34,705 nucleotides of DNA from a virus (Duplodnaviria; Caudoviricetes), in IMG/VR virus record IMGVR_UViG_3300022178_003189, positions 1-34,705 of that record; one strand, written 5' to 3'. A model generated the notes under the pieces. The model had not been told where the DNA came from. It did no database searches and was given only the letters and a program-made list of their open reading frames with translations. Every line of letters begins with the position of its first letter. Position 1 is the first letter of the stretch. Positions 29,052 to 34,634 of this stretch are shown piece by piece. Made by a program: the position numbers and the translations under genes.

Positions 29052-29675
29052 TTAAATGATCTTCTCTAACTCCTTGTTTAATCTTTTTATAAACGCTAAA
29101 CGTCCTGCACTTTTATCATTGTAATTTATACTGAACCAATCGCCGCAATTATTAACCATAGATTCTTTTTTAATACTCATAGCATTATATTTTTCGACTG
29201 CCATTTTATCATTCTCTGATAGCTTCCAATACTTGAGCGGTGATACTTCGCGGTGATTAATTCTAGCTAACTGTTCAACTTCTGAAATAGACAACCACAT
29301 TTTAATAAACGTGATAGGCTTTTTCTTTTCCCATATTAGAACGGACTTCATAAAATTACTATATTGCTTATCACTACACCAACCATTAACAGGTTGAACC
29401 AAGGCGCGACTATACCAAGAGCGATCATAGAATACTATTTGATTATCAGCGGGCATTTTCTTGAGCCATGATGCCAGCCAATTATCCATAGCGTGCGCGC
29501 TAGGCTTAGATGATAAGCATACACTGAACCATTGCGGATTAAGGTATTGTGTAAGCGTTCGGATTGTTCCCGTTTTTCCTGCCGTATCGCGCCCCTCTAA
29601 TATAACAGCGATACGCCCCCGATTTTTTTCTGCTAATTTGTTGAGCTTGGCTTGCTCTCTCTCTAATGAATTCAT
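29052..29675 (-). CDS. ppk2: Polyphosphate kinase 2
   Basis: 207 aa with P-loop EGRDTAGKTGTI, Walker B FYDRSWYSR, and IKMWLSIS..EQ..R...R..SPLKYWKLSEND lid motif. Confidence 0.93.
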   Translation of the reverse strand: MNSLEREQAKLNKLAEKNRGRIAVILEGRDTAGKTGTIRTLTQYLNPQWFSVCLSSKPSAHAMDNWLASWLKKMPADNQIVFYDRSWYSRALVQPVNGWCSDKQYSNFMKSVLIWEKKKPITFIKMWLSISEVEQLARINHREVSPLKYWKLSENDKMAVEKYNAMSIKKESMVNNCGDWFSINYNDKSAGRLAFIKRLNKELEKII

Positions 29676-31059: not shown

Positions 31060-31371
31060 TTACACGTTACTCAACAAAGCAGACAATGCCGACGCTGGAG
31101 CTTTTAGCAAGCCGTCTAGCGAACCATCATCCGCATCTACCGCTTTTGTAATTGCTTTGACAATATCCAGCTTTGAGACTGCCGCTTTTTTGCGAGCTGG
31201 TTTTGCTTTGACTTCGTAGTCAATGCCCGCACTTTTTGCTTTTGCAATAACGGAGCGGCTTGTAATACCAAGACCGAATTCTGTAGCCAAGGCCGCACAC
31301 TTTTCAGCGTTTAAAGGCGCTTGAGCGGTCATTGTTTCGATCATTTCAACTGTGTATACTGATTTTGACAT
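31060..31371 (-). CDS. A2: T5 A2-like pre-early DNA-binding protein (second-step DNA transfer)
   Basis: 103 aa with pattern LA.EFG..T.RSVIAK....Y....K.DIV..I.....L.GL.KA...L. GGAG RBS, and first gene behind strong promoters in the pre-early position. Confidence 0.7.
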   Translation of the reverse strand: MSKSVYTVEMIETMTAQAPLNAEKCAALATEFGLGITSRSVIAKAKSAGIDYEVKAKPARKKAAVSKLDIVKAITKAVDADDGSLDGLLKAPASALSALLSNV

Positions 31372-32579: not shown

Positions 32580-32940
32580 TGGCGCGACCGCGCCGCTCGG
32601 GGTTTGTCAAGCTTTATTTGTGGGCCATGTGCATTTAATTTGTGTGACCCCGCCCAGCTTGGTCTCCCAGAGATTCGGCGCGGGGGCGCCAGTAGTAGTA
32701 CGACGATGATATTGGTGGTGGGCCGCGCCGATTATACAGTATGTAAGCGATATTTGTCAAGTCTTTTATGTAAATTGCCACGAATTATATACAATTTGGT
32801 CAGTCTCTGCACAATGGCGCCGAGTAGTAGTACGACGATGCGCCGAAACAGTACCTGCGCCAGTAGTAGTACGACGATGTGTTTAAAATATGCTCTGCGC
32901 GCCGATTATAGCACACCCCCGCGGGGTTTGTCAAGTACTT
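32580..32940. repeat. GC-rich non-coding repeat tract, candidate injection stop signal (iss)
   Basis: AGTAGTAGTACGACGATG x3 (32691-32708, 32823-32840, 32862-32879), each preceded by GCGCC. GCGCCGATTATA x2 and GGGGTTTGTCAAG x2. Position after the pre-early genes matches the T5 iss. Confidence 0.65.
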
Positions 32941-33139: not shown

Positions 33140-33168
33140 TTGACTTTAGCTTTAGAAATCTGTATAAT
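33140..33168 (+). promoter_or_regulatory. sigma70 promoter for the tRNA pair
   Basis: TTGACT-17 bp-TATAAT. Confidence 0.85.
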
Positions 33169-33279
33169 ATCTTTATTGAATTGAGACATGAAAGAAAAGT
33201 TTTTAAGCAACAGTTTCGCACTTAGCGTGGTAAAACACGATATAACATAATCAGATGATCACTGAGTGCAACTAATAAA

Positions 33280-33353
33280 GCGAGTGTCGTATAATGGTAT
33301 TACATCAGCCTTCCAAGTTGATAACAGGGGTTCGATTCCCTTGACTCGCTCCA
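33280..33353 (+). tRNA. tRNA-Gly(TCC)
   Basis: Acceptor GCGAGT/ACTCGC with a 7th-pair G-G mismatch, anticodon arm TCAGC-CTTCCAA-GTTGA, T loop TTCGATT, discriminator T and encoded CCA. Confidence 0.92.
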
Positions 33354-33358
33354 ACAAT

Positions 33359-33434
33359 GTCCCATTCGTCTAGTGGTCTAGGACATCGGGGTTTCATCCC
33401 GGTAACAGGAGTTCGAACCTCCTATGGGACGCCA
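33359..33434 (+). tRNA. tRNA-Glu(TTC)
   Basis: Acceptor GTCCCAT/ATGGGAC, anticodon arm TCGGG-GTTTCAT-CCCGG, T arm AGGAG-TTCGAAC-CTCCT, G discriminator and CCA. Confidence 0.95.
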
Positions 33435-33463
33435 TTATTTATTAAGTAGTTATCATTTAGTTC

Positions 33464-33492
33464 TTGACACAATGCTGAATTCAATGTATAAT
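33464..33492 (+). promoter_or_regulatory. sigma70 promoter of the putative ncRNA
   Basis: Perfect TTGACA-17 bp-TATAAT. Confidence 0.9.
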
Positions 33493-33498
33493 ATGTTT

Positions 33499-33900
33499 TA
33501 AGAAATTGAGAAATAAAAGTTTAAAAGATTAGGTTTTGGGTTATTCATCGGTCACTACGTGGCATAAAATCTATAAGACTAGGGTAAAGCGTGATTCCCC
33601 TAGCTCCAGAATCTTTCTATTTATACTTTATTTCTGCGTGTAGTCCCCACGATAATTGGACTAGGTTTCTGTCTGACCTTAACAAGAGCAGCGCTGGCAG
33701 AGTCGAGAACCTGCAAAGTTGGGATCCTCCTACTAAAAGCGAGGATGGTTTCCTAGTTTCTACACCTAAAACTAGGTTTTATACTGAGAGTGTTCATGTA
33801 AAACGATTAGCTCAGTAATCAAAAACAAAAAGCCTACTACAATTTGCTACCTTTTGTGCCCCTTGATTAAACCGTTTCGGTCGATGATAGGGGCTTTTTT
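33499..33900 (+). ncRNA. Putative ~400-nt structured non-coding RNA
   Basis: Own consensus promoter and terminator, no RBS-led ORF. A long closing stem (33509-33540 pairing with 33605-33635) is followed by six consecutive hairpins. Confidence 0.65.
33858..33900 (+). terminator. Rho-independent terminator of the ncRNA
   Basis: GCCCCT...ACCG-TTT-CGGT...AGGGGC followed by TTTTTT. Confidence 0.75.
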
Positions 33901-33926
33901 GTGCCCCAGCAAAAGTACGAAAGTTC

Positions 33927-33955
33927 TTGACACATACTAAATTTTGATGTATAAT
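33927..33955 (+). promoter_or_regulatory. sigma70 early promoter
   Basis: Perfect TTGACA-17 bp-TATAAT. Shares AGTTCTTGACACA...ATGTATAATAT with the 33464 promoter. Confidence 0.9.
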
Positions 33956-33987
33956 ATACTTCTAAAACTGATAGAAGGAAGAAAATT

Positions 33988-34317
33988 ATGGGCAACGTAT
34001 TACAGTTTAGCAGCAAGACGGACAAGATAAAAGAAAGTATGTATGAAAAAATAGCTAAGATGGAAGAGCTGTACCAAACAATCGACCTAGCAGTTACAGA
34101 ACTGTTAGCAGCAGAGAAAGAAGCTGATGATGTAGAACGAGAGTTTAACAAACAGCTAAGAATTTATGCAGATATTGTAGGTGAAGAGAATGTTGAAGTA
34201 GGTTTCCTAGAGTATGCTCCAGAGATAGAAGTTTATCTAGATGATGAAGGCATACCTGACATACGATTCGCTAATGACCCCGAACAATTAGAACTATTCC
34301 CAGAGGAAGAACAATGA
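33988..34317 (+). CDS. Acidic coiled-coil hypothetical protein
   Basis: 109 aa, AAGGA RBS, NVLQF start and C-terminal QLELF. Confidence 0.8.
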   Translation: MGNVLQFSSKTDKIKESMYEKIAKMEELYQTIDLAVTELLAAEKEADDVEREFNKQLRIYADIVGEENVEVGFLEYAPEIEVYLDDEGIPDIRFANDPEQLELFPEEEQ

Positions 34318-34634
34318 AAAACGTAAACTATTCAGAAGAAGTAACCGCTACAATCGTGGCTGCCTACGCAGCAAATCCCAGCATGGAAACAGTTAAAGAT
34401 CTAGCAGAGACCTTTGACAAGACAACGAAGTCAATCATAGGAAAGCTGTCTAGAGAAGGAGTATATCAGAAAGAGAGCTATACTACGAAGACTGGTGCTA
34501 AACCCGTAACCAAAGTAGAATTAGTAACACAGCTAGCAGATTATTTACAGATAGAACTAGATTCAATAGCAGGACTAGAGAAATCACCAAAGGCAGCATT
34601 GCAGAAAGTATTGGATGTGTTGACAATTAACTAA
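34314..34634 (+). CDS. T5 D3/A2-family DNA-binding protein
   Basis: 106 aa with pattern Y.EE.T..IV..Y...V..LAE...T.KSIIGKLS.EGVYQK...K.ELV..L.....I.GLEK..K..L. Paralogous to 31060-31371. Confidence 0.75.
   Translation: MKNVNYSEEVTATIVAAYAANPSMETVKDLAETFDKTTKSIIGKLSREGVYQKESYTTKTGAKPVTKVELVTQLADYLQIELDSIAGLEKSPKAALQKVLDVLTIN

What the first reader, a model, noticed from the sequence alone, without database searches (positions are those of the whole stretch)
33499..33900. Unannotated ~400-nt multi-hairpin RNA with its own promoter and terminator beside the tRNAs
Seen: a perfect sigma70 promoter (33464-33492) and a terminator (33858-33900) bracket a region with no credible ORF. In the 5' domain, AGAAATAAAAGTTTAAAAGA..GGTTTTGGG pairs with TCCAGAATC..TCTATTTATACTTTATTTCT and encloses hairpins GTCAC/GTGGC and CTAGGG/CCCTAG. 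The 3' domain has six back-to-back hairpins with unrelated sequences but similar geometry, mostly 9-11-nt loops: TAGTCC/GGACTA (33641-33663), CTGTCT/AGAGCAG (33669-33691), GCAG/CTGC (33697-33714), ATCCTC/GAGGAT (33724-33746), CCTAGTTT/AAACTAGG (33752-33776) and TACTGAG/CTCAGTA (33782-33817). I do not recognise it as tmRNA, RNase P or tRNA. Known: large phage ncRNAs such as GOLLD occur beside tRNA genes. Inference: a new early phage ncRNA, possibly a processed array of decoys against RNA-binding defence proteins or nucleases, or a scaffold RNA.
Basis: partly seen in the sequence, partly recalled or inferred. Interest (0 to 1): 0.82.

Follow-up and report, generated by a model that had tools for sequence, protein, structure and literature searches.

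The report
Phage RNA of swappable pseudoknot cassettes
A T5-like aquatic phage carries a roughly 400-base non-coding RNA gene built from small predicted knotted folds that related phages gain, lose and swap like cassettes, and it likely works as a string of decoys that soak up the host's RNA-binding antiviral toxins.

Summary
The unit is real: a 12/12 sigma70 promoter, a terminator and no conserved ORF (stop codon in 97.5%-identical relatives). The 'six hairpins' are better read as back-to-back compact H-type pseudoknots: each loop pairs with the bases just upstream (cognate pairing ranks 2 of 720 permutations), and 25 of 27 substitutions in close relatives spare the model. The same promoter-RNA-terminator slot holds 59 distinct RNAs (177-652 nt before the terminator) in related uncultured T5-like phages, built as mosaics of shared, covarying modules; none matches Rfam. 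A profile trained only on natural ToxI antitoxins ranks module 1 first in the whole window, and a close relative carries a module 22/26 identical to a Pectobacterium ToxI repeat. Best reading (about 45%): an early multi-cassette RNA decoy against RNA-binding defence proteins, type III toxins first. Against: whole-RNA folding energy is ordinary, A-rich cleavage linkers are missing, the ToxI statistic is partly generic, and type III toxins were found in none of about 400 genomes of Colwellia's class. T5's unexplained RNAX is similarly modular and offers a direct test. The scan earlier noted similar swappable cassettes on other DNA.

The parts
33464..33492 (+). sigma70 promoter of the RNA; start predicted near 33499
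   Evidence: 12 of 12 consensus match; kept in L007, L008, L087, L088, L089, L092
33509..33635 (+). 5' domain: long closing stem ending in a three-way junction with two hairpins and a conserved A-rich strand
   Evidence: z -2.80; 9 of 38 pairs with two-sided change in 6 sequences; same layout as 'module A' of distant relatives by eye, but the module A model does not score it
33637..33662 (+). M1: predicted H-type pseudoknot (33637-40 with 33648-51; 33642-46 with 33658-62), the most ToxI-like cassette
   Evidence: 96.8% of cells paired in 7 sequences, one two-sided change in each stem; top hit of the ToxI profile in the window
33663..33691 (+). M2: predicted H-type pseudoknot (33663-66 with 33676-79; 33669-74 with 33685-91, one bulge)
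   Evidence: compensatory pair and wobble in L087; rank 9
33693..33714 (+). M3: hairpin 33697-33714 with a weak possible pseudoknot
   Evidence: invariant in the closest relatives, so no covariation support
33717..33746 (+). M4: predicted H-type pseudoknot, 3-4 bp first stem
   Evidence: rank 12
33747..33776 (+). M5: predicted H-type pseudoknot with a 7-bp second stem; the first stem is replaced by a different 4-bp pairing in L090, L007, L092
33777..33817 (+). M6: 7-bp hairpin with a conserved 22-nt loop that can pair with the U run upstream
   Evidence: two compensatory pairs in L087; loop conserved in 6 sequences
33818..33857 (+). single-stranded A-rich then pyrimidine-rich tail; 33842-33854 is a 13-nt exact match to an E. 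coli plasmid ToxI repeat but lacks the first strand of the knot
   Evidence: not significant alone: score 26, shuffle maximum 30
33858..33900 (+). intrinsic terminator
   Evidence: z -2.49; the same hairpin in L087, L090, L092, a shorter one in L007
33282..33434 (+). upstream tRNA-Gly(UCC) and tRNA-Glu(UUC) behind promoter 33140-33168; neighbours, not required parts
   Evidence: absent upstream of most related RNAs
33988..34634 (+). downstream 109-aa acidic ORF and T5 D5-like DNA-binding protein behind their own promoter 33927-33955; synteny markers
   Evidence: the 109-aa protein has no PHROG, Pfam, PDB or named Atlas match

Best explanation
This is a stand-alone phage non-coding RNA gene made of a folded 5' domain and a row of six small, unrelated cassettes predicted to fold as pseudoknots, which likely act as decoys that bind and neutralise RNA-binding defence proteins of the host, with ToxN-type toxins the best-supported candidates. 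Shown: promoter, terminator, loss of the ORF, pair-preserving variation, gain, loss and exchange of cassettes between relatives, and resemblance of some cassettes to natural ToxI monomers. Inferred: host RNA polymerase makes the RNA in bulk early in infection; each cassette folds on its own; when phage-driven shut-off depletes the host antitoxin, the cassettes would fill the toxin's RNA-binding site. Different cassettes would cover different toxins or other RNA-binding effectors, and recombination would keep refreshing the set. No binding partner, transcript ends or phenotype was shown.
For: Pseudoknot tiling: 6 A-rich knots tile 33635-33822, against at most 4 in 300 shuffles; cognate flank-loop pairing ranks 2 of 720 permutations, 105 of 5000 loop shuffles do as well, and the array is the only one of 736 window tiles with 5 knots. 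Of 27 distinct substitutions in close relatives, 15 are unpaired, 10 keep a pair and 2 break one, although 106 of 181 bases are paired. Cassette turnover: L087 has an insertion of about 60 nt, L090 joins parts seen in L007, L087 and the window, module A sits first, last or alone. Family-wide covariation, pseudoknot stems included: module A 15 of 21 pairs, 33 sequences; a second module 10 of 13 pairs, 20 sequences; 127 strict knots against 68 expected in 59 units. ToxI likeness: my two-stem profile from 40 natural monomers ranks M1 first and M2 and M4 ninth and twelfth in 69 kb; 13 hits above 15 bits in 60 units against 0-3 in 6 shuffled sets, 10 of the 13 in the window's clade; L008 module 22 of 26 identical to a Pectobacterium plasmid ToxI repeat, score 32 against a maximum of 24 in 30 shuffles. 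Natural toxin loci L442 and L448 also carry non-identical knots. Precedent: phage PhiTE pseudo-ToxI (PMC3475682, passages); ToxN is freed by transcription shut-off (PMC13728456, passages).
Against: No A-rich single-stranded linkers between the cassettes (0-5 nt), whereas ToxI monomers use such tails for cleavage and binding (PMC5086642, passages). A one-stem covariance model of ToxI gives no significant hit (best in-array E 6.3). Plain sequence similarity to ToxI is not raised family-wide (21.6 against 21.2) nor for the window (26, shuffle maximum 30); the same holds for CptI and TenpI (22.5 against 21.8). The structure-preserving null is biased: chance knots in coding DNA also beat it (p 0.002, 2.3 bits each, against 7.4 in the clade), the window alone is not significant (p 0.107) and clade modules are not independent. 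ToxN, TenpN and CptN were found in 0 of 401, 0 of 400 and 0 of 400 genomes of Colwellia's class, while they were found in 8 of 121, 7 of 150 and 5 of 120 of a gut-anaerobe class; the host is unknown. M5 resembles a preQ1-like hit by eye, so small knots converge. Scanner thresholds were set after seeing the data, and the loose scanner also finds 8 knots in 550 nt of coding DNA. Whole-RNA folding energy is ordinary.
Confidence: 0.45

Rival explanations
1. The cassettes titrate housekeeping RNA-binding factors (ribosomal protein S1, Hfq or ProQ, RNase E) or form a scaffold that helps the phage redirect translation and RNA decay.
For: Strong promoter at the start of the early region; conserved A-rich strands; S1 binds pseudoknots and Hfq binds A-rich RNA (recalled, no call).
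Against: Conserved host factors would not be expected to drive fast cassette turnover; only 3 GGA motifs against 4.8 expected, so not a CsrA sponge.
Confidence: 0.16
2. The RNA is an array of aptamers that sponge small molecules such as immune nucleotides or metabolites.
For: Compact knots with A-rich third loops are common aptamer folds (recalled); M5 resembles a preQ1-like Rfam hit by eye; module A has many invariant unpaired bases around a covarying knot.
Against: No riboswitch family matches at E up to 10 in the window or up to 5 in 20 related loci; the M5 first stem is replaced in L090, L007 and L092.
Confidence: 0.12
3. The knots are roadblocks that protect a base-pairing small RNA (the 3' tail) or the transcript from nucleases.
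For: Unstructured tail directly before the terminator; pyrimidine-rich ends in many relatives.
Against: The tail differs among close relatives; its best duplex with the rest of the window is not better than shuffles (5 of 25 as good); protection would not need many different cassettes. Host targets could not be tested.
Confidence: 0.12
4. The slot collects mobile or catalytic RNA modules (for example a self-cleaving module A) with little host-directed function.
For: Module A occurs alone before ORFs and at either end of arrays.
Against: No ribozyme family match; the window's 5' domain does not match module A; a dedicated promoter and terminator are kept.
Confidence: 0.1
5. The region encodes the 75-aa ORF 33591-33818 or is unstructured spacer.
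For: The ORF is open in the window; whole-region folding z is -1.20.
Against: Stop codon in L088 and L089, and the same base change in three sequencing runs; no family match; pair-preserving substitutions.
Confidence: 0.02

Closest known systems
Pseudo-ToxI of phage PhiTE (PMC3475682, passages read)
   Same: Phage non-coding RNA with ToxI-like pseudoknot units proposed to suppress a type III toxin.
   Different: PhiTE has 1.5 copies of one repeat that expand under laboratory selection; here six unrelated cassettes stand in a natural gene with a separate 5' domain, and cassettes are exchanged across a phage group. Activity is untested here.
Type III antitoxins ToxI, antiQ, CptI, TenpI (PMC5086642, passages read; natural loci)
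   Same: Promoter, tandem compact H-type pseudoknots with A-rich loop, terminator; M1 and two cassettes of relatives fit the ToxI profile.
   Different: No near-identical repeats, no A-rich linkers, no toxin gene behind the terminator, extra 5' domain.
T5 RNAX and the other seven 'stable RNAs with unknown functions' (NC_005859 annotation)
   Same: T5-like phage, tRNA region, own promoter, several hundred nt; RNAX orthologs also gain, lose and move internal blocks, and some blocks look like knots.
   Different: No sequence similarity beyond 12-mers, no module A hit, RNAX has a tRNA-like arm near its 5' end, and knot enrichment in five RNAX versions is not significant.
Racr and vsgRNA RNA anti-CRISPRs (PMC10651486, search listing; 10.64898/2026.06.01.729453, abstract)
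   Same: Phage RNAs that mimic host defence RNAs and sequester the protein.
   Different: Those are single units mimicking CRISPR repeats or tracrRNA; no CRISPR repeat match here.
GOLLD and ROOL large phage RNAs (10.1101/2024.12.08.627333, search listing)
   Same: Long structured phage RNA beside tRNA genes.
   Different: No Rfam match; independent exchangeable cassettes rather than one conserved ornate fold.

Membership tests
Type III antitoxin (ToxI/antiQ) | Units fold as compact H-type pseudoknots with an A-rich loop | tested here: met
   Predicted only:
Type III antitoxin (ToxI/antiQ) | Tandem near-identical repeats of 34-36 nt | tested here: not met
   No internal repeat of 18 nt or more in the window's unit; some natural arrays are also non-identical (L442, L448)
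Type III antitoxin (ToxI/antiQ) | A-rich single-stranded linkers bearing the toxin cleavage site | tested here: not met
   Linkers of 0-5 nt
Type III antitoxin (ToxI/antiQ) | Toxin gene directly behind the terminator | tested here: not met
   Next ORF has its own promoter and no family match
Type III antitoxin (ToxI/antiQ) | Sequence and structure match to known monomers | tested here: inconclusive
   Own two-stem profile ranks M1 first; one-stem model and Rfam give nothing; null partly biased
Pseudo-ToxI decoy | Binds ToxN and suppresses abortive infection | not testable with these tools
   Needs binding and plating assays
GOLLD/ROOL | Match to the Rfam covariance model | tested here: not met
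preQ1-I or other riboswitch | Rfam match and position in the leader of a regulated gene | tested here: not met
   No match; the next gene has its own promoter
CsrB/RsmY-type sponge | Many GGA motifs in hairpin loops | tested here: not met
   3 GGA against 4.8 expected
T5 RNAX | Sequence homology | tested here: not met
   Best match 12 nt, E 0.10; no phage record matches the window RNA
Module A of related phages (defined here) | Score on covariance model R1 | tested here: not met
   Window 0 hits; L087 5' domain E 3.7

The most novel reading that the evidence does not exclude
T5-like phages keep a general-purpose RNA counter-defence locus: one early transcript that strings together interchangeable RNA folds, each mimicking a different host defence RNA or binding a different immune molecule, so that one gene neutralises many systems and is re-armed by cassette exchange. 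T5's long-unexplained RNAX would be the same device in a laboratory phage.
Probability: 0.3. Interest if true: 0.92.

Novelty: new variant of a known kind. Interest (0 to 1): 0.74.

Why it matters
Phage counter-defence is catalogued almost entirely as proteins. A natural, widespread RNA gene built from exchangeable decoy folds would add a class that gene-centred searches miss, would supply dozens of new covarying RNA modules, and could point to host RNA-binding defence proteins not yet known. It also gives a testable idea for the T5 stable RNAs that the reference genome still lists as of unknown function.

Tried and rejected
Rfam: nothing for the window region, L003 or 20 related loci. Cultured phage records: no real match to the window RNA or the L055 RNA. 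An AT-rich motif scan gave 120 viral loci that were nearly all chance; a stricter motif gave 4, three already held and one coding. The module A motif in bacterial genomes gave 120 loci from 37 of 64 parts of the collection; 100 of the 120 were scored and none reached the level of true copies (best 27 bits against 40-92). L165 was dropped from the unit set as coding; 8 of 33 motif loci were dropped for lack of a nearby promoter. RNA-run contigs: X13 and X14 contigs end at 33705 and 33709 and an X14 contig starts at 33497, and bins without cover lie in the structural genes; contigs cannot show ends or level, so this is not used as evidence. One-stem ToxI model: no hit. CptI and TenpI similarity: none overall. 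Antisense target of the tail inside the window: none. CsrA sponge rejected. Motif search in the supplements of PMC10690425 found nothing, but 3 of 6 text files were not searched and 3 further files cannot be read, so modules may be among its candidates; bioRxiv supplements were closed. Resemblances to twister, ykkC-type and NAD-II riboswitch folds were recalled, got no Rfam support and were set aside.

Full report
Setting. The window is a 34.7-kb fragment of an uncultured tailed phage. Its tail, head and terminase genes and a D5-like protein match PHROG families; the closest cultured terminases, about 50% identical, belong to Pectobacterium phage My1 and Vibrio and Klebsiella phages that I recall as T5-like. 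Near-identical DNA is held by freshwater, aquatic and marine runs. The host is unknown; a gammaproteobacterium is an inference from those relatives.

Observation. Promoter, terminator, 5' domain and hairpins are at the stated places. Folding energy supports the 5' domain (z -2.80) and terminator (z -2.49) but not the whole RNA (z -1.20) or the 3' array (z +0.53, -0.71). The 75-aa ORF carries a stop in L088 and L089, which are 97.5% identical over the region. Six RNA runs from five studies hold 0.40-0.61 of the words of 33200-34000 and contigs of the four laid cover the unit wholly or in part; these are contigs, DNA may be in the libraries, so ends and level are not shown.

The hairpins are predicted pseudoknots. 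In each 3' unit the 3-5 bases just upstream of the hairpin can pair with the 5' side of its loop, leaving an A-rich third loop. Six such knots tile 33635-33822; none of 300 shuffles gave more than 4. Thresholds were chosen after seeing the sequence and the loose scanner is permissive, so I added controls that keep the hairpins: cognate flank-loop pairing ranks 2 of 720 permutations, 105 of 5000 loop shuffles do as well, and the array is the only one of 736 tiles of the window with five knots. Of 27 distinct substitutions seen in L087, L088, L089 and two run contigs, 15 are unpaired, 10 keep a pair (three compensatory pairs, four wobbles) and 2 break one, with 106 of 181 bases paired. M1 in 7 sequences is 96.8% paired with one two-sided change per stem, modest against shuffles (24 of 500). 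M3 is the weakest.

A family of cassette arrays. Loci around relatives of the D5-like gene (165 loci with duplicates) often show an ORF-free gap between two near-perfect promoters. I hand-picked 49 such gaps and added 25 of 33 motif loci; 59 distinct units remained, 177-652 nt, median 370. They hold 127 strict knots against 68 expected; 47 of 59 exceed their shuffle mean and 7 of 59 the maximum of 20. They are mosaics: L087 has an insertion of about 60 nt, L090 combines parts seen in L007, L087 and the window, and blocks recur at different positions. Two modules of more distant relatives covary strongly, knot stems included: module A (15 of 21 pairs, 33 sequences, collected by a motif) and a second one (10 of 13 pairs, 20 of 25 sequences aligned); related sequences can beat such shuffles, but the slid controls fall to 30-57% paired. 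The window's 5' domain has module A's layout by eye but does not score on its model. No unit tested matches Rfam.

What the cassettes resemble. A two-stem profile from them ranks M1 first (18.4 bits; training range 15-34) and M2 and M4 ninth and twelfth over both strands of the window. In 60 units it finds 13 hits above 15 bits against 0-3 in six shuffled sets, 10 in the window's clade. An L008 cassette matches a Pectobacterium plasmid repeat at 22 of 26 positions and M1 matches the L443 monomer at 18 of 23. The limits are real. A structure-preserving null gave 128 against 47 +/- 18 for 11 clade modules but p 0.107 for the window alone, and it is biased: 41 chance knots in coding DNA also beat it. 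The fair comparison is 8 of 11 non-independent clade modules against 8 of 41 chance knots at p below 0.1. Plain similarity is not raised overall, a one-stem model finds nothing, linkers lack A-rich cleavage sites, and the three type III toxin families were found in none of about 400 genomes of Colwellia's class, one per species and often incomplete. So the RNA is not a type III antitoxin by membership; that some cassettes work like one is a supported lead.

Mechanism. Most likely (0.45) a strongly expressed early RNA whose independently folding cassettes bind host RNA-binding defence proteins, so that toxins freed by host shut-off (PMC13728456, passages) are occupied, as with PhiTE pseudo-ToxI (PMC3475682, passages). 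Fast cassette exchange under a fixed promoter and terminator fits an arms race; this step is inference. Rivals are titration of housekeeping factors, ligand sponging, nuclease protection of a small RNA and a collection of mobile or catalytic modules.

A laboratory handle. The T5 record annotates eight stable RNAs of unknown function among its tRNAs, among them the 719-nt RNAX behind its own promoter. RNAX matches 527 phage records, 220 over at least 80% of its length; in four orthologs internal blocks are gained, lost or moved, and one block scores 19.8 on the ToxI profile. There is no sequence homology to the window RNA and knot counts are not significant (11, 6, 27, 60 and 9 of 60 shuffles as high), so RNAX is an analogue to test, not a shown homologue.

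Novelty. Ten literature searches listed no description of this RNA or of heterogeneous pseudoknot arrays in T5-like phages; the library lacks most subscription papers, and unread supplements of PMC10690425 may hold some modules as unnamed candidates. What I saw of papers: passages of PMC5086642, PMC3475682 and PMC13728456; abstract and outline of 10.64898/2026.06.01.729453; file list and a partial motif search of PMC10690425; listings only for the rest. Earlier scan notes describe modular pseudoknot RNAs in other phages; none shares sequence words with this region, I did not test them, and they came after my reading was formed.

Verdict. Observation confirmed and refined; a real, uncatalogued, modular phage RNA; decoy function likely but untested. 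New variant of a known kind, interest 0.74.

Noticed in passing
T5 NC_005859 40848-41566 (L481:14849-15567) and L482-L485: RNAX orthologs of cultured T5-like phages keep their ends but gain, lose and move internal blocks; several blocks look like small pseudoknots, and one in Klebsiella phage pzk-kv23 scores 19.8 on the ToxI profile.
   Followed up: partly
L055:1982-2076 and 33 other copies: Module A: an 80-100-nt three-way junction with a covarying pseudoknot and many invariant unpaired bases, found first, last or alone in these phages; no Rfam match; possible aptamer or ribozyme.
   Followed up: partly
L442:1329-1429, L448, L443, L445: Natural ToxN/AbiQ-family loci whose antitoxin region holds non-identical pseudoknots or a single one, not the textbook identical repeats.
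   Followed up: partly
window 32686-32879: Three copies of a 23-nt repeat lie among perfect minus-strand promoters in a gene-poor stretch between the divergent early regions; possibly an origin or DNA-transfer signal.
   Followed up: no
window 29052-29675 (-): Polyphosphate kinase 2 gene (Pfam E 3.7e-45) in the early region.
   Followed up: no
window 33988-34317: Acidic 109-aa protein that follows the RNA in many relatives; only unnamed viral clusters resemble it.
   Followed up: partly
L003:268-330 and related units: A module with two U-rich strands and a downstream A-rich tract that could form a U-A-U triple helix (seen).
   Followed up: no
L032:1767-2342: A tRNA-Met gene lies inside one of the cassette arrays, before its terminator.
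   Followed up: no
window 31060-31371 (-): A second D5-like gene on the opposite strand (PHROG E 0.00028).
   Followed up: no
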